A stretch of 64,000 bases of DNA. Origin: an archaeon. GTDB taxonomy: Archaea > Nanobdellota > Nanobdellia > Woesearchaeales > GW2011-AR15. The notes below the pieces were generated by a model that saw nothing but the letters and a program-made list of their open reading frames with translations, was not told where the DNA came from and searched no databases. Of the stretch, positions 9,001-48,541 are shown in pieces; position 1 is the stretch's first letter, and each line of letters opens with the position of its first letter. Position numbers and translations under genes: made by a program. Location: the NCBI GenBank assembly GCA_043826135.1, contig JBDRQT010000005.1, forward strand, positions 70,255-134,254, given 5' to 3'.

Positions 9001-10758
9001 AAATTTGAAATAATTAGTACTGCTGAGCTTGCAAACACCTGTTTTGTAAAAGTCCGTTCAGTTGATGCAATCGAAGGTGTAAACAGGGACTGGTATCTGA
9101 AATTCGATGATGTGTTTAGCGCAATACTTTCATGCAACATAGATTCAGACTGTGGAGGGAATTATGAGTGCAGGAACAATCTTTGCTATGAGAAAAAATT
9201 CGCACTCGTCGGACTTTATGATGTTCCAATAACGAAATTTGCTGAGGCAAAAAGTTATGGGGCTGAGCACCTAGGAACTTATTCAACGGACAATAGTCTG
9301 GGAGCAGAAGACTTCCTAAGATTGAATGATAATTTGTTCAAGACTTCTGGAAACAATCTTGATATTGAAAAAATAAGCCTGAACTATGAAGATGGAACAG
9401 CTTACTGGATAATAGATGATATATGCAATGATGAGAAATGGGATCTGTCTATTAATGATTTGACAGATTTATACACTGAACTAAAAACTCAAGCAAGTTC
9501 ATACGTTATGATAAATTTTGAGGATCTTAACTGTGCACTGGATTACCTCAATTTAGCAGATAAGCCAATAGCTGATGTTGCTATGTTTAAGGTTGATGTC
9601 GCGAGGCCGGATGATTACATAGGAAAGCAGTCAGCACTCGCTGAAGCAATAATAAAAGAGAGTATTGATAAAAAAATCCCAATGAAGATCTTGCCAATTG
9701 TAGATGTGAGCGAGGCAACTCCTGCATGGATATCAAAAACAGGTGAAGACCTGCTTGGAGAAAAAACAACAGGCGGGCTGTCTCCATTCTCAGGCCTGCT
9801 TTTTGGGCCGTATAATAAGATAAGACCGGAAGAAAAAGATGTACTCAGCTATGTATTCTGCAAAGCAAAGGAGATTTATCTTGAGCAGGATTGCAGCGCT
9901 GATCCCGCAGACCTGGTTGAAGAAGTGAAGATTGCATTTGTCTCCAATCTTGCAGATACAAATATTCTCTCTTTGGCACAAGGAAAAGATGTTGACCTGA
10001 TTGTATTATCCGGAAACATCGGAACACCTCTGTTCTCCAGCTCTATACCTTATCTTGGTGCACTTGGGCTTCTGGATAATGAAAATACACAATTCACAAG
10101 GATACCTGAGGGGATGGAGTGCTCTGGCCAGGATGGAGATATGATTGAATGCGAATATAAAGGAATCACCTTTGTTGTTTCAGGGGTCGGGATCTCTGCA
10201 ACATCAGGCCATGAAGATTTCATCAGATCAAGCATGAATGATCTTTCAGGTTGGGGAGTCTGTGTCTGGAGCAAGAATAGTTATCTTCTGAGAACTAGCG
10301 CAAAAGCGAATGCTGAAACACTAGCTCTAAAATATTATGATCTGTGCCTGGCAAAAGGAGCAATCATCGCAACAGGCTATGATCAAAGTTATGCAAGGAC
10401 AAAGACTATTACAGGTATGAGCCAAAATATTATGTATGCAGGATCACCTTCAATCATAACACTCGGGCGCAACAAGACAATGGTTTTCAATTCAGGCCTT
10501 GGAGGCATGGGATCAGATAGGTTTGACTGCAATCGGGGATACGGATACTGGGCAAGCATTTATACCAGCAATTACTATCTCAAGAACGGAATAGATCAGC
10601 AGAAATCATGCACAACTGATGCAGTTGCAAATTTCAAGAATGGAGCACTGTTTATCACATTCAACTATAATGAGGATCAGACAAAGGCTCATGGTGAGTT
10701 CATCACTGTTGATAATCAGGTGATGGACACCTTTGAAATCTCACGCGAAATCTCGTAA
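6037..10758 (+). CDS. Giant (1573 aa) Cys-rich surface protein, paralog 1: pilin-like N-terminus, shared N-module, internal TM block, Pro-rich linker, degenerate metallophosphoesterase-like C-terminus
   Basis: Uninterrupted 4.7-kb ORF. N-terminus MVVGNKSQATLYVIIGLTLVLVIGFF. Blocks EGCVRQTVIDAEIKYGLHRIW and GIWVGLPTEVDAANNKITTYITHFS are shared with the ORFs at 10805, 40794(-) and 47138. Confidence 0.85.
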   Translation: MVVGNKSQATLYVIIGLTLVLVIGFFLSLNAQQRSQEIASVADSRSALDAERFSLDYYIEGCVRQTVIDAEIKYGLHRIWAAPEIEAYIENNLGNCLDDFRYFKERGYLVNNGNLDAKVDISREAVAVTIDLPVYLKKGEMEITYDSKVYRLPLTSLERLNLNGETRIVSSDGTLILEIPEGTVVTVKGQKVDQVGVQLLDRHFNAMPNDVVAGMLAFNGIPHKAEFSKPVKVTKYYQEKDIPIYVREEELRLGTYDSDVGIWVGLPTEVDAANNKITTYITHFSQMATVKDCGTEGEPAVITNTIVRQECTGCEEKWIKDLTSEIKYSLPSPKDYSIDKTQKLGFVPECFGEAPVISPDTGITKEDTDTLKKIIAIDEADFDHCFGFCSDTSNKDKKDPKCNCDLFYYKDYFRQKGLQDKGGLPEGGTDSQKQIIFTLEDGKFQGYDIYDVDFKEKGAACVAALEKDFVVDSVGNNINVDTTGVLTEDNDKAAIAISVDYCSDKDTCQIVKPIFIKQEPKLRFGFQVINSPSEDSPDTCISGGAKVEIAGVGALNAVYGCSGSESGKIDFVRGVCMKCDGQIWQKQDMKECFPEGKCVGALMGVVRWNDKNCEECMSSGEWKKLETPEKCVSSCEEPQDSVALNPTKAIIDITGRPGDPPENEENNIDWKKVAGWAAITVGVVAIGVGIALALPVVLAATGLMAAGGLAFLPALAIAGYGISSIAIPGLIIGGGIITGTAGGFILANSQDVTDQNVQLASSPQQDIQPDASQVNSPAPGAASDSRCLSGSITQPDIPPEQTLTDGAKDCNEAGNVKIYTLLTASWAETEDCKGKGCEAGKCKTEATAEPVKCGKENELICNPGETCDPTTKECKKPDTGSTSSTSSAPTGSLPTVPPSTPPPAAPVAAAPSQLGGASACSPACSTDQDCVDGTCVDKPKTCIEGNPTSPCKDINDASVQGKQFTVPGSINTLDMDFCDTFGSYSGEDKFEIISTAELANTCFVKVRSVDAIEGVNRDWYLKFDDVFSAILSCNIDSDCGGNYECRNNLCYEKKFALVGLYDVPITKFAEAKSYGAEHLGTYSTDNSLGAEDFLRLNDNLFKTSGNNLDIEKISLNYEDGTAYWIIDDICNDEKWDLSINDLTDLYTELKTQASSYVMINFEDLNCALDYLNLADKPIADVAMFKVDVARPDDYIGKQSALAEAIIKESIDKKIPMKILPIVDVSEATPAWISKTGEDLLGEKTTGGLSPFSGLLFGPYNKIRPEEKDVLSYVFCKAKEIYLEQDCSADPADLVEEVKIAFVSNLADTNILSLAQGKDVDLIVLSGNIGTPLFSSSIPYLGALGLLDNENTQFTRIPEGMECSGQDGDMIECEYKGITFVVSGVGISATSGHEDFIRSSMNDLSGWGVCVWSKNSYLLRTSAKANAETLALKYYDLCLAKGAIIATGYDQSYARTKTITGMSQNIMYAGSPSIITLGRNKTMVFNSGLGGMGSDRFDCNRGYGYWASIYTSNYYLKNGIDQQKSCTTDAVANFKNGALFITFNYNEDQTKAHGEFITVDNQVMDTFEISREIS

Positions 10759-35888: not shown

Positions 35889-35946
35889 TAACTTTTATTT
35901 TTGAATTATTTTATTAGTTAATGTATAAGAAAAAAAATGCCTCTTC

Positions 35947-38900
35947 TCACTTGGTTTTTATCTGCCAATATTTGTTGGCATCATTTGTGCAGGAATATAT
36001 TTTGCCGCCGACTAATAGTTCTTTGCCACGAGCACTATCATCACAGGATACATAGTGTCCCTCACTACAAAGTTGATAGTTGTTGTTTGGATAAAGCAAA
36101 GGATTAGAGGATGTACATTTTGCTTCACATATTGTTCCCCAACTATGTGTAACAAGATCTTTATTATTGTCACTGCAAACGCAATTAAACTTTCCATCAT
36201 CTTTCTGGCCAGATGGGCACACTCTAACCCAATGAGGCGAAATACCATCGCAATTGAAAGTGACTCCATTAAGTGTTACTGAATGAGTGAGATCACCCCA
36301 ATTACTGCATGTAATACAAACGCCATTTGTATTAACTAACCCACCTGATTCACAATCTTGACTCGGAGAGAGAGTTTGTTCGGATGAAGGTTGGGCACCA
36401 GAATCGGTTACACATTTTCCACCATCAATTTTTTCGGTTGCAGCGCAACATAATACCAACTTATTATTATTCCAACAACTTTGTTTTGCATCTGTGATGA
36501 ATGTTTCTGAGCATTTATCAGATGAAGGGGATACATCGCATGGGTTGCTTATAGTGGGAAGATCTTGACCGGTAAGGCTTGATTGAATACATTGTACACT
36601 GTTTCCAAATGTATGAGCAGCAAAACCATTCGCAGTATCGCATCCACATCCGTCTTTTTTCGGACCGGGAATTGAATTTATTGCGCATTGCTTGCAAGAT
36701 TCATCTTTGTATACAGCATTACCTTCGCATTCACATATATTTAATTCTGCATTCCATGTAGCACCGTTGCAGACAGGTGTTGGAGTTGAAGTTGCTGTAG
36801 ATGCCACTCCTGCTTTTATGGTACAGGTAGTAGCAGTATTACCAACAAGTTCATAATTGTCTGGGCAACATACCACAACATCACCATTTATACAGGTCTT
36901 ATCTGCACCAGTCAAGAAAACATTATTCTTACAGAATAATCCATGACCAGAATCTCCATTGCCACACGCTTCTCCAGTATAGGAAGGCAGTTCCGTAGCA
37001 CGTTCTGCAAGAGTATTATAAACGCATTGGGTTTGTCCATTTGATAATTTAATATGCTTATACCCACTATTACAAACACACTCTCCATTTTGAATAGATC
37101 CCTGTATAGTGCAATCACCTTCTTTTAAATTAGTATCAGCAGGCGCACCAGAAGCAGATGCAGCACACGTCCATAACTCCCCAGTCAAATATGTAATTGC
37201 TGCATTTGGATCACTACATTGATAATAGTTGGGATCTCCATTCACCTGGCATTGGTATCCTCCGCTAACTATAATGTCTCTTGTCTTTTCTGAAGTAGAT
37301 ATGCACTCAGGCAGATCAAGAATACACGATCTTGATGACCTGCCATCGTCATGCACTTCTTTGAGTGTGTAGGGTTCCACACACTGTTGTTTAGGTGTGC
37401 TTCCGTCCAGACATTCTTCCTGGTTTCCTCCTGAGATTTCCAATGTCGTTGCACCTGATTCACAACCTGGTAAATTTCTATCAATTATCTCTTGAGGCAC
37501 GCAATAACCATTCTGATATTGTGTATTTAGATCACATTCATATTTCACAACCTGGCTTCCTTTAAGCTTATTGCCTTCATCATCTGTAAGAATGTGCAAG
37601 CATGCGTGAGAGCCATCAACCTGCGGTTCAAATGCATTATTGCTGCTGCAGTCACCCGTGTCTTTTAGTGAACCGCTCCCAAGACCGCTCTTTGGGACAC
37701 ATAGTTCCCCAGATTTTATGTATGTATCATCGCATTCATACATGGGAGTTCCATCTTTGCTGCATCTGTGGCTGTTAGCTGTTTCTGTGGAGACTAAGTT
37801 ACTAACATCTTTACACGAATATTTATCTTTAAACTCCTGCAATGAAACACAGCCATCTTCGGTTGAATACTGATTAACTGCACAGCAATATAATATCTTA
37901 TTCTCAGTTGGGCTTCCAGATTTTTTGTCTGTGCATTTGTATTGATAATTGCTTGGCTGGAAGACTGAGCACCTTCCGGAACCACTGCTAACAGTAGTAG
38001 CCTGTGCTTCTTCTGGACATGGCATGACAGCAGTTTTATCTTTGCCATCATTATTGTAATCACAGAGTCCATCACCATTTGTTCCAAGGAAGTAACTTGT
38101 GCTGGGTACTCCAGGAGCCATAGTTGTTTCGCAGCACACACTAAGTGGGAATACCTGCCTCTGACCACCAGGAGTGGGTGTGCAATAGCATGCACCCTTC
38201 ATTTTTCCATCTTTATCATAATTCTGGACAGTATTAGATGGTCCATCATTTTGTCCATAGCAGGTAAGGCCGCTTGCGCTTTGTGAATAGTAGCTGGGGA
38301 AGGTTGTAGCTATAACATGCTCACAATATTTTGGATTATTGTCTGGACTATCAGTTGAACCATCATTCCATTTTCCCTCATCAATTAAGGTATTCTTTGC
38401 CGCGGTCATATCAGAATTCAGATTATGAAATGTGACAAAACAACAGTCGTTAAATTCAAGAGGTATTTTTTTACCATCACTATCATGGCATAGGCATTCA
38501 CCAATAAAACTTCCATCATCCGCTTTTCTATAATTGCCGGTTTTCAAATCAGGAATATTTCCATTCGGTCCATCCCATTCCCCATAACAATTTTTATCAA
38601 ACAAAGTTCCTTTTTGTTTATCCAGGAACTCATCGTAGGTTTCATAAAAATGCGGGGGCTCGACAACATTGACACCATCATCAAAAAATATTTTCGCCCT
38701 CACCTGTGGGCAGACATTCTTTTTATCAGGAAATTCATCATTTGTGTATTTTGCATACAATATGTTTTCAGTGCGAGCATTGAACCTAATTTCACTTGGA
38801 GCAGGCGGATTTGGAAGTGGTATAGAGTTCAGGGTTCGCTCTTTTATGATATTATTTTGTAAGTCGTCTGGATTGAAATAAACTAGAACACCATTCTGCC

Positions 38901-40794
38901 CGAAATCATCATATAATGGTTCAGCAACAGTATAGCCTATATTGAAATTCTCTGGCATGCACGCATTGCTTTTCGAAAAGATATAGAATTGGATATTGCC
39001 GGATCCCTCAAAAGCAGTGTCATCGGAAAGATATGCAGCTCGCTCTTCACATTCAGGCAATCCTGAATTTCCGTCTATCTTAATCATACTATACAGTTCT
39101 AGTTTAGCTTTTGAAGTTTCTTCACTGTTCGGATTGCTAGAATATGAGTTTTTATAGTTATTATATAAAACAAGTAAAACTGGGAATGATTTCTCAGAAG
39201 TAATACCTTTTTCCTTAAAATATTCTTCAAGTGCAGTAGCATCTGGAATTGATTTTGTATTGAATTCAGTATCAATGGATTTAACTTTATCGTTCAGTCC
39301 AAGACCATACATCTGGCATTCCTTTTCGGTTTGGAATGCAGTCAAATCAGGCGCTGAAACACTTTGGACATAATATCCAACAGGTAGAGACAATGGTTCT
39401 AAAGATATCCAGATGGTTGTGTAATCTTTATATGCATTGAAGTCAAATGTCCTGCCTCTCATCTCAAAAGGTGCCTCAGGAGTATGGAAACCTGAAGGAT
39501 TTACTTTAATATCAGCTGTATAACGCTTATCTTCGGCCGCCGCTGGCTGAACCTCAGTTAGTGTATCACCATGATTTTCGAATGTAACTTCGACTGGCGC
39601 AGGCAAAATATTAACAGGCAATTTGTCAGAAGCCGCAATTTCTCCATCTAACTTAGAATCATCGTTATTTTTCTTAACATAGTCCTCAAAAGCCACGGGA
39701 TCAAATTCATTCATCTTCAATTCATCAATCTTTTTTGGTGACACGTAATATTTAGTCCCATCCAATGCTGTGTATTTGGTCCACTCACAATATTCCTTGT
39801 TCGTTTCTTCTTCTGCCCTTGGGTCATATCCTGTAGGCCAATATTTTGGTAGATAAATGAATCCTAAATCCATCTCAGCTGGTTTTTCCCTAGTCAAACT
39901 TTTTTCTCCATCGTCGGATTTAACATAGCAGTCAATCACGATCCCATAATATGAAAAATGCTTGATTGTAGCGGAGACTGAAGATTCGTCCGCAGACAAG
40001 CTGCTTGGTATTGAATTCCAGATACCAGTCTCTTCATTATAATAAGCAATTGATAATTTATTTAAATCATATCCATCAGGCAGATCCTCAGGTCTGAAGC
40101 GTATGCTGAGTTTCATCCCATCATTTATTACAGCACCGCTTGGCTGAAGATTATAGATAGTATTTCCAACTACTATGCCGTTGAATTGGTTATTGAACTT
40201 TGCATCTTCAATTTTTATAGATACCATCTCAACCGGTTTTCCATCAACTGTAACTTCAGTATTTTCAGGCAAGCTGAGAATAGCATTTTTATCAACAGAT
40301 TGCAGGCTTAATTCCTTGTCTGCTATCCCCTTATTTAGGGAAACAAAGTTGGTTCTTCCTGTGTTATAAGCAAATTCATCAAAAACATATTCAGATGAGT
40401 CTCTTTTTAATATGAATGGATAATTCAGTGTGGCAATAACCTTTTCATCACTTATTTCAAGGTAAGTAGTCGGAAATTTTTCCTCTAACTGATATCCTTG
40501 ATTCTCATAAACAGAAAGGTCAAGGCAAGTATCTATCTTTTCTGTCACATAACTCTCAATTAGATTGCCAGAGCCGTCTAATCCATATAATAAAACACCT
40601 TCATCAGTCAGCTCTTTGAGGCATCCTTCAGCATATTTCTCAACAGAATCTTTTATATTTCCGCTGAGGCCGAGCGAGGAGATAGACGAACTAATCTCCT
40701 GCTTGGGTGCATTCATGATTGAATAAGTACCAATCCCAACCAGCACCAACAACACAACACCGACTATGACAAAAGGAGTAACCTGCGCTTTCAT
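35947..40794 (-). CDS. Giant (1615 aa) Cys-rich surface protein, paralog 3: pilin-like N-terminus, shared N-module, and ~1000 aa of EGF-like Cys-rich repeats
   Basis: MKAQVTPFVIVGVVLLVLVGIGTY is preceded by GGGTGGGG. Shared blocks are YAEGCLKELTDEGVLLYGL and GIWNSIPSSLSADESSVSATIKHFS. The C-terminal two thirds are dense in C-x-C / CxxxxC patterns (e.g. NGECVCNSGYKHIKLSNGQTQCV). Confidence 0.85.
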   Translation of the reverse strand: MKAQVTPFVIVGVVLLVLVGIGTYSIMNAPKQEISSSISSLGLSGNIKDSVEKYAEGCLKELTDEGVLLYGLDGSGNLIESYVTEKIDTCLDLSVYENQGYQLEEKFPTTYLEISDEKVIATLNYPFILKRDSSEYVFDEFAYNTGRTNFVSLNKGIADKELSLQSVDKNAILSLPENTEVTVDGKPVEMVSIKIEDAKFNNQFNGIVVGNTIYNLQPSGAVINDGMKLSIRFRPEDLPDGYDLNKLSIAYYNEETGIWNSIPSSLSADESSVSATIKHFSYYGIVIDCYVKSDDGEKSLTREKPAEMDLGFIYLPKYWPTGYDPRAEEETNKEYCEWTKYTALDGTKYYVSPKKIDELKMNEFDPVAFEDYVKKNNDDSKLDGEIAASDKLPVNILPAPVEVTFENHGDTLTEVQPAAAEDKRYTADIKVNPSGFHTPEAPFEMRGRTFDFNAYKDYTTIWISLEPLSLPVGYYVQSVSAPDLTAFQTEKECQMYGLGLNDKVKSIDTEFNTKSIPDATALEEYFKEKGITSEKSFPVLLVLYNNYKNSYSSNPNSEETSKAKLELYSMIKIDGNSGLPECEERAAYLSDDTAFEGSGNIQFYIFSKSNACMPENFNIGYTVAEPLYDDFGQNGVLVYFNPDDLQNNIIKERTLNSIPLPNPPAPSEIRFNARTENILYAKYTNDEFPDKKNVCPQVRAKIFFDDGVNVVEPPHFYETYDEFLDKQKGTLFDKNCYGEWDGPNGNIPDLKTGNYRKADDGSFIGECLCHDSDGKKIPLEFNDCCFVTFHNLNSDMTAAKNTLIDEGKWNDGSTDSPDNNPKYCEHVIATTFPSYYSQSASGLTCYGQNDGPSNTVQNYDKDGKMKGACYCTPTPGGQRQVFPLSVCCETTMAPGVPSTSYFLGTNGDGLCDYNNDGKDKTAVMPCPEEAQATTVSSGSGRCSVFQPSNYQYKCTDKKSGSPTENKILYCCAVNQYSTEDGCVSLQEFKDKYSCKDVSNLVSTETANSHRCSKDGTPMYECDDTYIKSGELCVPKSGLGSGSLKDTGDCSSNNAFEPQVDGSHACLHILTDDEGNKLKGSQVVKYECDLNTQYQNGYCVPQEIIDRNLPGCESGATTLEISGGNQEECLDGSTPKQQCVEPYTLKEVHDDGRSSRSCILDLPECISTSEKTRDIIVSGGYQCQVNGDPNYYQCSDPNAAITYLTGELWTCAASASGAPADTNLKEGDCTIQGSIQNGECVCNSGYKHIKLSNGQTQCVYNTLAERATELPSYTGEACGNGDSGHGLFCKNNVFLTGADKTCINGDVVVCCPDNYELVGNTATTCTIKAGVASTATSTPTPVCNGATWNAELNICECEGNAVYKDESCKQCAINSIPGPKKDGCGCDTANGFAAHTFGNSVQCIQSSLTGQDLPTISNPCDVSPSSDKCSETFITDAKQSCWNNNKLVLCCAATEKIDGGKCVTDSGAQPSSEQTLSPSQDCESGGLVNTNGVCITCSNWGDLTHSVTLNGVTFNCDGISPHWVRVCPSGQKDDGKFNCVCSDNNKDLVTHSWGTICEAKCTSSNPLLYPNNNYQLCSEGHYVSCDDSARGKELLVGGKIYSCTNDANKYWQIKTK

Positions 40795-40960
40795 ATCCCC
40801 ACCCTCATATTTTATGGAAAATCTGATGTGTTTCCCCTATATAAGCTTTTCCAGAGGATAAGCTTAAAAACCCTTTTTAAGGCATAATTTTAAATAGTGA
40901 ACTCTATTCTCTCTTTCTGGACGTCAAAGTCCAAATATACATAAGTAGGTGCAAGTAAAT

Positions 40961-47137: not shown

Positions 47138-48541
47138 ATGCGAAAAGCACAGCTGTCTGTTTTTGTAATTTTTGGACTATTAATTATGCTCGCAATCCTT
47201 ATCTTTCTTAGTAATCCACCTAAGATTCAAAGCTCTGTGATTGAATTCTCTACTGAACTTGGCAGGCTCGGTCCATATTTCAGGGAATGCTGCAAGCTCT
47301 CGATGCTGGACGCTAATTCAAGATATGGGCTCCATTCTTCCACAAAGGACGATTATGAGCCATATCTGATCGCAAAGGTTGATGATTGCATGTCTCCATT
47401 TCTTCAGGATATTGCTGTCAGGGGGATGGATGTCGAAAGGGTGGATACTCCGTCTGCACTGCTTGAGATAAATGACCTTAATGCGATCGTGACCATAAAA
47501 TATCCTGTGAAGGTTTCCACAAAATCCGACTCTTACATATTTCCTGATTATGTCCAGAAATTCGAGAGAGTTACCATTATTGATGAAAAGAACATCAATA
47601 ATGCAGTCTCAGCAGATACAAATTTTATTTTGTCAGCACCAGACGGGATAAGAATTTATGGACCTTACGACGAGGAATTTGCTAATCTTTACATTAAAGT
47701 GTCAGACAAGAGAGAGATTGGATGCGATGAACTTCTCGGAAATCTGGTATATGGTGTTTATCCTTTGGGCTATTATTCAGATGAACCTATAACAATCAAG
47801 CTCGATATAGATAAGATAGCGCCCTGGCTTACAGACAGGGACAAATTAAGGATAGCTTGGCAGGATCCGGATTCAAAGAAATGCACTTTCCTCGAGAATA
47901 GCAAATATAAAGATGGAATGCTCCAGGCTGATACAAAGTATATCACTTTCTTCGGGATTGGCAAGCCCTCAGTTTCCACATCAGGATATCCCTATCAATC
48001 TACAGGAGAAGGAACATCCGGTTCATTCAACACACCGGCAGGTGATTTTGAGCCTGTTCAAGGGACCGCGCAGGTAATATATGACGGAATAAAAGCAGAG
48101 ATGGGCGGTACATATTCTCTTTTTAAGAATAATGAATGCGTGCCTCCCGGAGCATATTGTTTTACCGGCTGGTCTGCAAGATGCCCAAACGGAGAAGCGG
48201 CAATATATTGCAATGATGCAATCTACAGCATTGATGAAGGTGCACTCAATACTTTGTTCCGGCATGAGATAACGCATAATCTGCAGCAGAATAATAAGTG
48301 CGCTTTTGATACAGCAAAATCCGAATGGGGTGCTGAATATTATTCCGGAAGCAATTACTATAATTTCGCGATAACATCTCCAACGATAACAAGGTCAGGG
48401 ATGTCTGCCGCAGAAGTCGGCACAGAATTAGAAAAAGCAGGATGCATAAAGTCTGAACTCCTCGATGCTGCTTTTTGCAAAGGCGGAAATATCGGGTCAT
48501 ATACGCAAAAATGTGATGTCGAGATTACAGGTTACAGTTAG
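47138..48541 (+). CDS. Short (467 aa) member of the giant-protein family: pilin-like N-terminus, shared N-module, and a C-terminal HExxH (putative Zn-metallopeptidase) region
   Basis: MRKAQLSVFVIFGLLIMLAILIF; YFRECCKLSMLDANSRYGLH; LLEINDLNAIVTIKYPV; LRIAWQD...DTKYITFFG. HEITH at nt 48263-48277 lies in LNTLFRHEITHNLQQ. Confidence 0.75.
   Translation: MRKAQLSVFVIFGLLIMLAILIFLSNPPKIQSSVIEFSTELGRLGPYFRECCKLSMLDANSRYGLHSSTKDDYEPYLIAKVDDCMSPFLQDIAVRGMDVERVDTPSALLEINDLNAIVTIKYPVKVSTKSDSYIFPDYVQKFERVTIIDEKNINNAVSADTNFILSAPDGIRIYGPYDEEFANLYIKVSDKREIGCDELLGNLVYGVYPLGYYSDEPITIKLDIDKIAPWLTDRDKLRIAWQDPDSKKCTFLENSKYKDGMLQADTKYITFFGIGKPSVSTSGYPYQSTGEGTSGSFNTPAGDFEPVQGTAQVIYDGIKAEMGGTYSLFKNNECVPPGAYCFTGWSARCPNGEAAIYCNDAIYSIDEGALNTLFRHEITHNLQQNNKCAFDTAKSEWGAEYYSGSNYYNFAITSPTITRSGMSAAEVGTELEKAGCIKSELLDAAFCKGGNIGSYTQKCDVEITGYS

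What the first reader, a model, noticed from the sequence alone, without database searches (positions are those of the whole stretch)
35947..39900. Giant 3 carries ~1000 aa of EGF-like cysteine-rich repeats after the family N-module
After the shared N-module and a large Cys-poor beta-rich middle region, the C-terminal ~700-1000 aa are packed with cysteines in short recurring patterns. Examples are C-x-C, CxxxxC, 'NGECVCNSGYKHIKLSNGQTQCV', 'CNGATWNAELNICECEGNAVYKDESCKQC' and 'CCP/CCA...C'. These resemble EGF or small disulfide-knot modules.
Such modules are typical of eukaryotic extracellular matrix proteins and rare in archaea. There is no C-terminal anchor, so the protein would be held only by its N-terminal helix or pilin-like signal.
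Basis: partly seen in the sequence, partly recalled or inferred. Interest (0 to 1): 0.6.

Follow-up and report, generated by a model that had tools for sequence, protein, structure and literature searches.

The report
Disulfide-rich, glycan-free archaeal surface protein tail
The far end of a 1,615-residue surface protein of a tiny symbiotic-type (Woesearchaeota) archaeon is an 880-residue chain of small cysteine-stapled modules that look a little like animal EGF modules but are not related to them, and the protein completely avoids sugar-attachment sites.

Summary
The gene at window 35947-40794 (minus strand) encodes 1,615 aa. There are 8 Cys in residues 1-735 and 70 in residues 736-1602.

The only full-length relative found among 1.84 billion representative proteins has only 27.5% non-Cys identity in the tail. 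It keeps all 70 tail cysteines in the same order, with the same CxC, CC and CxxC placements. Cys spacing is strongly non-random.

The EGF reading is only a resemblance:
- No Pfam, NCBIfam or PDB sequence match reaches threshold.
- One 36-aa module gives sub-threshold EGF hits.
- A moderate AlphaFold model shows chains of beta-hairpins.
- Its best structural neighbours are EGF arrays, but the matches are not significant.
- Internal repeats are weak and of several kinds.

Such proteins are not rare here. The genome has 29 large Cys-rich ORFs, two membrane-anchored DsbA-like oxidoreductases and a 13-member family sharing this N-terminal anchor module.

A new point is that the protein and its ortholog contain no N-x-S/T sequon (17.7 and 14.9 expected), although AglB is present.

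My best reading is a distal, disulfide-stapled, unglycosylated, fast-evolving recognition or adhesion domain. It is an orphan variant of DPANN cysteine-rich surface proteins.

The parts
35947..40794 (-). Whole gene, 1,615 aa (P0001), stop codon included
   Evidence: ORF list and translation. A full-length ortholog, P0002 (1,594 aa), was found in metagenomes.
40836..40845 (-). TATA-like box (CTTATATAGG) about 42-51 nt upstream of the ATG. A G-rich ribosome-binding site, GAGGGTGGGG, lies at 40797-40806.
   Evidence: Read directly from the sequence. Function is inferred.
40714..40794 (-). Residues 1-27: short basic N-terminus, K-A-Q, then a hydrophobic helix (MKAQVTPFVIVGVVLLVLVGIGTYSIM). It is a class III (prepilin-like) signal or membrane anchor.
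   Evidence: It is the only hydrophobic segment of the protein. The [KR]-[GAS]-Q-[IV]-[TS]-x-[FY]-V-I-x-G pattern is shared by the paralogs. The genome has an A24 prepilin peptidase. Cleavage is inferred.
39925..40713 (-). Residues 28-290: N-module shared by the protein family
   Evidence: There are 12-13 paralogs in the own genome and hits in 28 of 41 related genomes, all confined to residues 2-290. C58 and C90 are invariant.
39952..39960 (-). H279-F280-S281: candidate GAIN/MAIN-type autoproteolysis motif, followed by a hydrophobic strand (YYGIVID) and C289
   Evidence: H-[FL]-[ST] is conserved in 11 of 13 own paralogs and in P0002. B. subtilis YfkN is cleaved between F and S of its HFS motif (bioRxiv 10.64898/2026.05.12.724683). 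The fold and the cleavage were not tested here.
38590..39924 (-). Residues 291-735: Cys-poor middle region (5 Cys, all conserved in P0002) of unknown fold
   Evidence: No Pfam hit and no PDB sequence hit. Non-Cys identity to P0002 is 38%.
35950..38589 (-). Residues 736-1615: Cys-rich tail with 70 Cys (up to 35 disulfides). It is the end farthest from the membrane anchor.
   Evidence: Cys counts and spacing statistics. The 70-Cys framework is conserved in P0002 at 27.5% non-Cys identity. It has no relative in the 19 other genomes of the same family.
38431..38589 (-). Module I, copy 1 (residues 736-788): C-Y-G-x2-D-G-P ... C-x-C ... CC
   Evidence: Self-BLAST gives 30 bits against residues 845-891. 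The hhalign self-comparison gives P 0.004.
38122..38262 (-). Module I, copy 2 (residues 845-891)
   Evidence: Recovered by a leave-one-out HMM at 14.7 bits, E 0.002.
37849..37971 (-). 'CC' module, copy 1 (residues 942-982): C..C..CC..C
   Evidence: Self-BLAST gives 26 bits for 927-984 against 1413-1463. This copy was not recovered by the leave-one-out HMM.
37012..37119 (-). Residues 1226-1261: the one module with sub-threshold EGF-family profile hits (C-x10-C-x-C-x2-G-Y-x12-C)
   Evidence: EGF_Mua-3 E 0.0055, EGF_Teneurin 0.009 and I-EGF_1 0.013, all below their cut-offs. The ortholog's module hits Pvs28 EGF at E 0.09.
36301..37113 (-). Residues 1228-1498: two copies of a roughly 140-aa super-unit (1228-1372 and 1370-1498). 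Each holds a CxC module followed by a CC module.
   Evidence: The hhalign self-comparison gives score 41.9 and P 4e-4 over 126 columns.
36823..36966 (-). 'CC' module, copy 2 (residues 1277-1324). It contains CCPDNYELVGNTATTC, which gave a local sushi-like chance match.
   Evidence: Module alignment. The P0004 hit has E 2e-5 over 60 aa only.
36412..36540 (-). 'CC' module, copy 3 (residues 1419-1461)
   Evidence: Recovered by a leave-one-out HMM at 13 bits, E 0.007.
35950..36771 (-). Residues 1342-1615: the part with the best structure model, a chain of two-stranded beta-hairpins
   Evidence: AlphaFold2 with 3 sequences gives mean pLDDT 67.6, and 70-87 for residues 1342-1461.
35930..35937 (-). 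T8 run 10 nt after the stop codon, a likely archaeal terminator. The radA gene converges from the other side.
   Evidence: Read directly from the sequence. Function is inferred.

Best explanation
P0001 is a cell-surface protein of a Woesearchaeota (DPANN) archaeon.

**Export and anchoring.** It is exported and held by its N-terminal prepilin-like hydrophobic helix. Next to the membrane sits the family N-module. It ends in a conserved H-F-S motif, where it probably cuts itself in the way GAIN/MAIN domains do. That would leave residues 281-1615 attached only non-covalently and therefore releasable.

**Tail.** The 880-residue C-terminal tail is the end farthest from the cell. It is a chain of heterogeneous small beta-hairpin modules, each locked by two or three disulfide bonds (about 35 in all). 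The bonds are probably made by the membrane-anchored DsbA-like oxidoreductases of the genome.

**Evolution and function.** Selection keeps every cysteine and removes every N-glycosylation sequon, while the loops between cysteines change fast. The tail is thus a rigid, protease-resistant, sugar-free display scaffold. Its most likely use is to recognise or stick to a partner cell or surface.

**Relation to EGF.** It works like EGF- or TNFR-type module arrays but is not a detectable member of those families.

**Shown:**
- the gene, the Cys framework and its conservation;
- the absence of sequons;
- the N-terminal-only anchor;
- the presence of DsbA-like, AglB and A24 peptidase genes.

**Inferred:** disulfide bonding, self-cleavage, and the binding role.
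For: **Cys framework**
- There are 70 Cys in residues 736-1602 against 8 in residues 1-735.
- The ortholog P0002 has the same 70 tail Cys, in the same order, with identical placement of CxC, CC and CxxC. 61 of the 70 align exactly, while non-Cys identity is only 27.5%.
- Cys gaps of 7-23 residues number 52 of 69, against 29.5 +/- 4.1 in shuffles.
- The total Cys count is even.

**Structure**
- The AlphaFold model of residues 1342-1615 consists entirely of short beta-hairpins, with pLDDT 70-87 over its first 120 residues.
- Its top Foldseek neighbours, though not significant, are EGF arrays (NELL2, uromodulin, Pfs25), TNFR1 and hairpin-repeat fibres.

**Oxidative folding and export**
- The genome has two membrane-anchored DsbA-like proteins with CxxC sites.
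- The only hydrophobic segment of P0001 is at its N-terminus.
- An A24 peptidase is present.

**Self-cleavage motif**
- H-[FL]-[ST] is conserved in 11 of 13 paralogs.
- The same motif is cleaved in MAIN domains.

**Sequon avoidance**
- P0001 has 0 N-x-S/T sequons against 17.7 expected, and P0002 has 0 against 14.9.
- The reverse motif (19) and N-x-A/G (17) occur at normal frequency.
- AglB is present.
- The family as a whole has 32 sequons against 108.7 expected.

**Divergence gradient**
- Non-Cys identity to P0002 falls from 40-53% in the N-terminal bins to 20-26% in the tail.

**Modular family**
- 13 paralogs share the anchor module and carry different ectodomains.
Against: - No disulfide was observed. 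The model coordinates could not be inspected for S-S geometry.
- The model of the full tail is poor, with pLDDT 36.8.
- No VKOR or DsbD was found to re-oxidise the DsbA-like proteins.
- The habitat, and therefore its redox state, is unknown.
- The GAIN-like fold of the N-module was not tested here. No sequence-level GAIN hit exists. The domain order is the reverse of that in published MAIN proteins.
- No ligand, host or expression data are available.
- With only 2-3 homologous sequences, fast loop evolution cannot be told apart from relaxed constraint.
Confidence: 0.55

Rival explanations
1. The tail is a true array of EGF-family domains, homologous to those of eukaryotic matrix proteins. It would be either ancient or acquired from a eukaryote.
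For: - Module 1226-1261 gives several sub-threshold EGF-family Pfam hits (E 0.003-0.05).
- Its ortholog hits Pvs28 EGF at E 0.09.
- The best Foldseek PDB hits are EGF arrays (E 0.026-0.05).
- The hairpin-CxC-hairpin-C layout in the model resembles the major and minor EGF hairpins.
Against: - No hit reaches any gathering threshold, for the whole protein, for 300-aa pieces or for 17 isolated modules.
- The PDB sequence profile search finds no EGF chain even at E<=10.
- The EGF signature patterns are absent.
- Most modules carry 4 Cys with other spacings, or a CC doublet that EGF lacks.
- Foldseek probabilities are only 0.1-0.2 and TM-scores below 0.2.
- Base composition is native.
Confidence: 0.07
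2. The cysteines bind metals (Zn, Fe, Cu) instead of forming disulfides, as proposed for the CXXC motifs of Giardia variant surface proteins or for MopE-type motifs. The tail would then be a metal-binding or redox-active surface array.
For: - Woesearchaeota are often anaerobes, and disulfides are harder to maintain in reducing habitats. This rests on general knowledge.
- No VKOR or DsbD was found.
- Other giants of this genome carry the Pfam 'putative metal-binding' MopE motif.
Against: - There are only two CxxC motifs. Most Cys lie 7-23 residues apart, which is typical of disulfide loops and not of metal clusters.
- His makes up only 1.6% of the tail.
- The tail has no MopE or other metal-motif hit.
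- Extracytoplasmic DsbA-like proteins are present.
Confidence: 0.1
3. The tail is only a stiff spacer or part of a protective coat, with no specific binding function. Its divergence would reflect relaxed constraint on loops.
For: - The only conserved features are the cysteines and a few Gly or Asp residues.
- No recognisable binding domain is present.
- The structural neighbours are fibre-like hairpin repeats.
Against: - The tail is at the free distal end, not between the membrane and another domain.
- The complete purge of sequons in two orthologs that are only about 33% identical points to selection on the exposed surface.
- The family swaps ectodomains on a constant anchor.
Confidence: 0.2
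4. The tail is the variable target of a diversity-generating retroelement, or a recently expanded DNA repeat array.
For: DGRs are common in Woesearchaeota and related DPANN archaea. This rests on general knowledge, and the topic appears in PMC5758913, which was listed.
Against: - No DNA repeat of 35 nt or more involves the gene, and no template/variable repeat pair lies in the 64-kb window.
- There are no tandem DNA repeats in the gene.
- The two metagenome copies of the ortholog differ by 1 residue in 1,594.
Confidence: 0.02

Closest known systems
EGF-like domain arrays (Pfam clan EGF; for example NELL2 EGF1-6, uromodulin, Plasmodium Pfs25/Pvs25)
   Same: - Both are extracellular chains of small modules of about 30-60 residues, built from beta-hairpins and held by conserved cysteines.
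- A C-x-C-x2-G-[YF] motif occurs in one or two modules.
- EGF arrays are the best, though non-significant, structural neighbours.
   Different: - No profile match reaches threshold.
- Most modules have 4 Cys or a CC doublet, not the six-Cys EGF framework.
- The loop after C-x-C is 12-16 residues long, not 4-8.
- There is no calcium-binding consensus.
- The modules are of several kinds and do not form a regular repeat.
MAIN/GAIN-domain surface proteins (Brogan & Rudner, bioRxiv 10.64898/2026.05.12.724683; for example B. subtilis YfkN)
   Same: - Both are large, surface-anchored proteins.
- A conserved H-F-S motif (H-x-S/T) lies at the end of a beta-rich domain and is followed by a hydrophobic strand.
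- Adhesion-type ectodomains are attached.
   Different: - Published MAIN proteins run: signal peptide, ectodomains, MAIN domain, C-terminal wall anchor.
- Here the anchor is N-terminal and the ectodomain follows the motif, so the released piece would be the C-terminal fragment.
- The fold and the cleavage were not tested here.
Cysteine-rich variable surface proteins of protists (Giardia VSPs, Paramecium surface antigens, Pfam PF01508). This is an analogy from general knowledge.
   Same: In both, a multigene family has a constant anchor part and a variable Cys-rich ectodomain whose Cys framework is kept while the loops vary.
   Different: - VSPs are CXXC-rich and carry a C-terminal TM anchor. 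This tail has only two CxxC motifs and no C-terminal anchor.
- There is no Paramecium_SA hit.
- There is no evidence of antigenic switching.
Other cysteine-rich giant surface proteins of DPANN archaea
   Same: They share the lineage, the export signals and a high Cys density. They are also depleted in sequons: exported ORFs with 4% Cys or more have a sequon observed/expected ratio of 0.35.
   Different: - The tail of P0001 matches none of their module families.
- It has only one full-length and one partial relative among 1.84 billion representative proteins.
- It has no relative in the 19 other genomes of its family.

Membership tests
EGF-like domain (Pfam clan EGF) | Profile-HMM match at or above the family gathering score | tested here: not met
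   There were no hits for the whole protein or for 300-aa pieces at E<=10. One module of 17 tested gives 16-18 bits against cut-offs of 24-65.
EGF-like domain (Pfam clan EGF) | Six-cysteine framework within about 30-40 residues, with the C-x-C-x2-[GP]-[FYW]-x4-8-C signature | tested here: not met
   The signature patterns, written from memory of PROSITE PS00022 and PS01186, give 0 matches in P0001, P0002 and P0003. Only a relaxed pattern matches two modules. The modules mostly have 4-6 Cys with other spacings.
EGF-like domain (Pfam clan EGF) | Two-hairpin fold with 1-3, 2-4, 5-6 disulfide connectivity | tested here: inconclusive
   The AlphaFold model shows paired hairpins. The Foldseek best hits are EGF arrays, but at E 0.026-0.05, probability 0.2 or less and TM-score below 0.2. 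Connectivity could not be read.
GAIN/MAIN autoproteolytic domain | Conserved H-x-[ST] cleavage motif in a beta-turn at the end of the domain, followed by a buried beta-strand | tested here: met
   HFS lies at residues 279-281 and is followed by YYGIVID. H-[FL]-[ST] occurs in 11 of 13 own paralogs, in P0002 and in the L018 paralog.
GAIN/MAIN autoproteolytic domain | GAIN-like fold of the domain | not tested
Pfam and PDB sequence searches of the N-module found nothing relevant. An earlier agent's note claims the fold, but that is a lead only.
GAIN/MAIN autoproteolytic domain | Domain order: ectodomains N-terminal of the MAIN domain, surface anchor C-terminal | tested here: not met
   The anchor helix is at residues 1-27 and the ectodomain lies C-terminal of the motif. 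The published order is given.
GAIN/MAIN autoproteolytic domain | Autoproteolysis with the fragments staying associated | not testable with these tools
   This needs expression of residues 28-330 in wild-type and S281A forms.
Archaeal class III (prepilin-like) signal peptide proteins | Short basic leader, [KR]-[GAS] followed by Q or a small residue, then a hydrophobic helix. A prepilin peptidase must be present in the genome. | tested here: met
   The N-terminus is MKAQVTPFVIVG..., and the pattern is shared by the 13 paralogs. A Peptidase_A24 gene lies at G000:C7:3051-3380. Cleavage itself is not testable here.
Giardia VSP-type variable surface proteins | Many CXXC motifs and a C-terminal TM helix with a conserved cytoplasmic tail | tested here: not met
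   There are only two CxxC motifs and no C-terminal hydrophobic segment.
Sushi/CCP domain | Module of about 60 aa with 4 Cys and a conserved Trp, matching the Pfam Sushi profile | tested here: not met
   The only link is a 60-aa local match to a eukaryotic sushi-repeat protein (P0004, E 2e-5). There is no Pfam Sushi hit.
DGR variable protein | Template and variable repeat pair near a reverse transcriptase | tested here: not met
   No repeat of 35 nt or more involves the gene within the window.

The most novel reading that the evidence does not exclude
In this Woesearchaeon the exported proteome is split into two classes with opposite surface chemistry.
- Cys-poor proteins are loaded with N-glycosylation sequons.
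- Cys-rich proteins have lost nearly all sequons. They include the 13-member family with a prepilin-like anchor and an H-F-S motif, and P0001 is the extreme case.

The family would be a set of force-releasable, sugar-free, disulfide-armoured recognition heads mounted on a GAIN/MAIN-like self-cleaving anchor of inverted topology. The orphan, fast-evolving tails would decide which partner cell or surface the archaeon binds.
Probability: 0.3. Interest if true: 0.7.

Novelty: new variant of a known kind. Interest (0 to 1): 0.45.

Why it matters
DPANN archaea are thought to live attached to other cells, yet the molecules that make the contact are almost unknown.

**An experimentally approachable candidate.** The protein has a defined anchor and a probable release site. 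Its distal domain keeps 70 cysteines fixed while the rest of the sequence drifts.

**Sequon avoidance.** The complete, orientation-specific absence of N-glycosylation sequons occurs next to an intact AglB. It is mirrored in the ortholog and in the whole paralog family. This simple sequence signature could be used to sort archaeal surface proteins into glycan-coated and bare classes. It also raises a testable question: why must disulfide-rich ectodomains stay unglycosylated?

**A caution for annotation.** 'EGF-like' cysteine patterns in DPANN genomes should not be read as eukaryote-type domains without profile or structural support.

Tried and rejected
- **Family searches.** Pfam was run on the whole protein, on overlapping 300-aa pieces and on 17 isolated modules. 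NCBIfam was also run. Nothing scored above threshold.
- **PDB sequence searches.** The tail profile, the N-module profile and the middle region were searched. Nothing relevant was found.
- **Homolog searches.**
  - The word-index homolog search of the tail returned only the query itself.
  - phmmer of the tail and the middle region against all own-genome ORFs also returned only the query.
  - Module HMMs hit nothing else in the genome.
  - The genome-contig scan with the tail alignment found no relative.
  - The metagenome scan found only a second copy of P0002.
- **Structure.** AlphaFold on the whole 880-aa tail gave pLDDT 36.8, which is unusable. Foldseek against PDB and BFVD gave no convincing match. 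The BFVD hits at E about 5e-4 have TM-scores near 0.13 and rmsd of 20-40 A, so they only say 'extended hairpin fibre'.
- **My own module types III and IV.** I had classed these as 4-Cys modules by hand. Leave-one-out HMMs do not recover them, so I do not claim them as repeat families.
- **DGR or DNA-repeat origin.** Rejected.
- **Redox partners.** VKOR and DsbD were not found.
- **Tool failures.**
  - The alignment of six N-modules was too divergent for the search for related loci.
- **Literature.** Searches found no paper on DPANN Cys-rich tails or on sequon depletion.
Full report
**1. What is there**

The finding lies in a single ORF at window 35947..40794 on the minus strand. It encodes 1,615 aa, stored as P0001.
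- Upstream are a TATA-like box and a G-rich ribosome-binding site. A T8 run follows the stop codon.
- The neighbouring genes are archaeal housekeeping genes, including radA, an RPA-like gene and gatD.
- RadA is 66-84% identical to the RadA of many MAGs labelled Woesearchaeota or Nanoarchaeota. The organism is therefore a DPANN archaeon.
- Its genome bin is 1.88 Mb and about 95% complete.

**2. Checking the observation**

P0001 has 78 cysteines: 8 in residues 1-735 and 70 in residues 736-1602, or 1.1% against 8.0%.
- C-x-C occurs 6 times, CC 5 times and CxxC twice. The quoted 'CxxxxC' does not occur.
- Cys spacing is far from random. 52 of 69 gaps are 7-23 residues long, against 29.5 +/- 4.1 in shuffles, and none of 5000 shuffles reaches 52. 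Gaps of 4-6 residues and gaps above 23 are both depleted.
- The only hydrophobic segment is at the N-terminus, so there is no C-terminal anchor.

The Cys-rich part proper is window 35950-38589.

**3. Relatives and conservation**

An exhaustive HMMER scan of 1.84 billion representative proteins with the tail found three proteins besides the query itself:
- P0002, a full-length ortholog of 1,594 aa, 33% identical over the whole tail;
- P0003, a 342-aa protein covering the last roughly 250 residues;
- a short local match to a eukaryotic sushi-repeat protein, which I regard as chance.

P0002 lies on two metagenome contigs that are 99.9% identical at the protein level. None of the 19 other species genomes of the same GTDB family has the tail, and that includes 5 genomes of the same genus. 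Nothing else in the own genome resembles the tail or the middle region.

P0001 and P0002 both have 78 Cys, 70 of them in the tail.
- The order of the cysteines is the same, and so is the placement of every CxC, CC, CxxC and Cx3C.
- 61 of the 70 align exactly. The other 9 are displaced by a few alignment columns.
- Non-Cys identity is 44% in the N-module, 38% in the middle and 27.5% in the tail. Per-100-aa bins fall to 20-26% beyond residue 1000.

The Cys framework is therefore under strong purifying selection, while the loops diverge quickly.

**4. Is it EGF?**

At the sequence level the answer is no.
- Pfam gave nothing for the whole protein or for overlapping 300-aa pieces, even at E<=10.
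- NCBIfam gave nothing.
- A profile of the three tails against all PDB sequences gave nothing relevant.
- I then submitted modules one by one. Only residues 1226-1261 (GDCTIQGSIQNGECVCNSGYKHIKLSNGQTQCVYNT) gave hits. They were to several EGF families and a TSP1 domain, at E 0.003-0.05 and 16-18 bits, all below the gathering scores of 24-65 bits.
- The orthologous module gave E 0.01-0.09.
- PROSITE-type EGF signatures, written from memory, are absent.

At the structure level the result is inconclusive.
- AlphaFold2 on the 880-aa tail with 3 sequences failed, with mean pLDDT 36.8.
- On residues 1342-1615 it gave mean pLDDT 67.6, with 70-87 for the first 120 residues. The model is a chain of two-stranded beta-hairpins, and the C-x-C motifs sit on second strands. 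That resembles the layout of EGF, TNFR and furin-type modules.
- Foldseek against the PDB found no match at E<=0.001. The weak top hits were NELL2 EGF1-6, uromodulin, Pfs25/Pvs25, TNFR1 and hairpin-repeat domains, with TM-scores below 0.2.
- Foldseek against BFVD gave only fibre-like, low-TM matches.

My conclusion is that the tail probably works like arrays of small disulfide modules of the EGF or TNFR kind. Membership of the EGF family was tested and is not met.

**5. Internal repeats**

There are no DNA repeats in the gene. At the protein level self-similarity is weak but above chance.
- 21 off-diagonal BLAST matches reach 22 bits or more, against a mean of 3.8 and a maximum of 16 in 40 shuffles.
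- Profile self-comparison supports three relationships:
  - a roughly 140-aa super-unit present twice, 1228-1372 and 1370-1498 (P 4e-4);
  - a duplicated N-terminal module, 736-802 and 845-905 (P 0.004);
  - a period of about 60 residues in 1012-1196 (P 0.02).
- Leave-one-out HMMs recover only the 845-888 module (14.7 bits) and the 1419-1461 'CC' module (13 bits).
- My hand-made 4-Cys classes are not recovered, so I do not claim them.

The tail is therefore a mosaic of old, diverged modules of several kinds. It is not a regular repeat array.

**6. Context: not rare in this lineage**

The genome has 29 ORFs of 300 aa or more that contain 15 or more Cys in some 200-aa window. Nearly all begin with a signal or anchor sequence. 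Several carry recognised Cys-rich Pfam families:
- Disintegrin (E 5e-21);
- TSP type 3 (E 2e-62);
- the MopE 'metal-binding' motif (E 3e-82);
- DUF4215.

Notes from other agents of this scan describe many unclassified Cys-module surface proteins in other DPANN genomes. Those notes are leads only.

The genome also has two membrane-anchored, outward-facing DsbA-like proteins with CxxC sites. It has no VKOR or DsbD.

**7. The anchor**

Residues 2-290 form a module shared by 12-13 paralogs in this genome and by 28 of 41 related genomes.
- All members start with a prepilin-like pattern: a basic leader, [GAS]-Q-[IV]-[TS], then a hydrophobic helix.
- One A24 prepilin peptidase is encoded in the genome.
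- The module ends in H-F-S at residues 279-281, followed by a hydrophobic strand and a conserved Cys. H-[FL]-[ST] is present in 11 of 13 paralogs.
- This is the motif at which GAIN domains and the recently described microbial MAIN domains cut themselves. YfkN is cleaved between F and S of its HFS motif (bioRxiv 10.64898/2026.05.12.724683).
- An earlier agent proposed the same reading for the paralogs. I confirmed the motif but not the fold.
- The domain order here is the reverse of the published one. If cleavage occurs, residues 281-1615 would be the releasable fragment, with the Cys-rich tail at its far end.

**8. An unexpected feature: no sequons**

| Protein | N-x-S/T observed | Expected from composition |
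|---|---|---|
| P0001 | 0 | 17.7 (Poisson P 2e-8) |
| P0002 | 0 | 14.9 |
| P0003 | 0 | 2.9 |

- Control motifs in P0001 occur at or above the expected frequency. The reverse motif S/T-x-N occurs 19 times, N-x-A/G 17 times (14.5 expected) and D-x-S/T 26 times (17.7 expected).
- P0001 is the most sequon-depleted large ORF of the genome.
- An intact AglB/STT3 gene is present.
- Among 83 ORFs that look exported, the sequon observed/expected ratio depends on Cys content (Spearman rho -0.43, P 5e-5):

| Cys content | Sequon observed/expected |
|---|---|
| 4% or more | 0.35 |
| 2-4% | 0.78 |
| 1-2% | 2.14 |
| below 1% | 1.53 |

- The 13 paralogs together have 32 sequons against 108.7 expected, while the reverse motif occurs 104 times.
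- Family members in related genomes show the same depletion.

The tail is thus kept free of N-glycans by selection, whereas other exported proteins are sequon-rich.

**9. Best explanation and rivals**

My best explanation (confidence about 0.55) is a prepilin-anchored surface protein. Its distal 880 residues form a rigid, unglycosylated chain of small modules, stapled by about 35 disulfides, that displays fast-evolving loops. It is most likely used for recognition or adhesion. It may also be releasable through MAIN-like self-cleavage.

The rivals are:
- true EGF homology (0.07);
- a metal-binding Cys array (0.10);
- a mere spacer or coat with no specific binding (0.20);
- a DGR or DNA-repeat origin (0.02).

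Disulfide formation, cleavage and binding are inferences. The Cys framework, its conservation, the sequon purge, the topology and the accessory genes are shown.

**10. Novelty and score**

The kind of protein, a Cys-rich giant surface protein of a DPANN archaeon, is known in outline. Four things are new here:
- the tail is an orphan, with one full-length and one partial relative worldwide;
- its 70-Cys framework is strictly conserved at 27.5% non-Cys identity;
- it sits distally on an inverted MAIN-like anchor;
- sequon avoidance is complete.

I rate it a new variant of a known kind, with interest 0.45.

Expression, habitat and population variation could therefore not be examined.

Noticed in passing
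Whole genome G000 (window = C5:70255-134254); P0001 at window 35947-40794: The exported proteome splits in two. Cys-rich exported ORFs (4% Cys or more) have an N-x-S/T observed/expected ratio of 0.35, while Cys-poor ones have 1.5-2.1 (Spearman rho -0.43, P 5e-5). The 13-member N-module family has 32 sequons against 108.7 expected. AglB is present at G000:C4:1251-2570.
   Followed up: partly
G000:C39:16280-19744 (L103), C5:134666-139237 (L106), C67:7646-11914 (L102), C39:22279-27432 (L105), C8:1898-4462 (L104): Other giant Cys-rich exported proteins of the same archaeon carry Pfam domains usually thought of as eukaryotic or myxobacterial. They are Disintegrin (E 5e-21, 7 stretches), thrombospondin type 3 repeats (E 2e-62), 16 MopE-type motifs and DUF4215.
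   Followed up: partly
L112:1075-1998 (G000:C4, 307 aa): A DsbA-like domain (CFDCPYT) is fused to an N-terminal membrane part that has 2-3 hydrophobic helices and two Cys pairs. It may be a built-in DsbB/VKOR-like re-oxidising partner, in a genome that lacks VKOR and DsbD.
   Followed up: no
L019:636-1751 (JGI 3300005077): P0003 corresponds only to the last roughly 250 residues of the tail plus about 90 unrelated residues. It has no signal peptide and sits right next to a phosphoribosyltransferase gene. It could be a gene remnant, a stand-alone module protein or an assembly chimera.
   Followed up: no
L018:2024-5611 and 5727-10511; L020:135-3713 and 3829-8613: In the ortholog's contigs, another family member (1,195 aa, same N-module, 1 sequon against 8 expected) lies directly upstream in tandem. 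In the window, the gene instead sits between radA and a small acidic protein, so the locus is not syntenic.
   Followed up: no
P0001 residues 1292-1351 (window about 36742-36921): CCPDNYELVGNTATTC gave a local HMMER match (E 2e-5) to the repeated CDENYVLVGNSSITC of a eukaryotic sushi-repeat protein (P0004). There is no Pfam Sushi hit, so this is probably convergence of a beta-hairpin motif.
   Followed up: partly
P0001 and P0002, whole length: D-x-S/T is over-represented in both orthologs (26 observed against 17.7 and 17.4 expected). That is what would be seen if former sequon Asn residues had been replaced by Asp.
   Followed up: no
window 47138-48541 (+): The short family member (467 aa) lacks the H-F-S motif and has Y-I-T at that position. 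It would therefore not self-cleave if the motif is catalytic. An earlier first-reader note points to an HExxH motif in its C-terminus.
   Followed up: no
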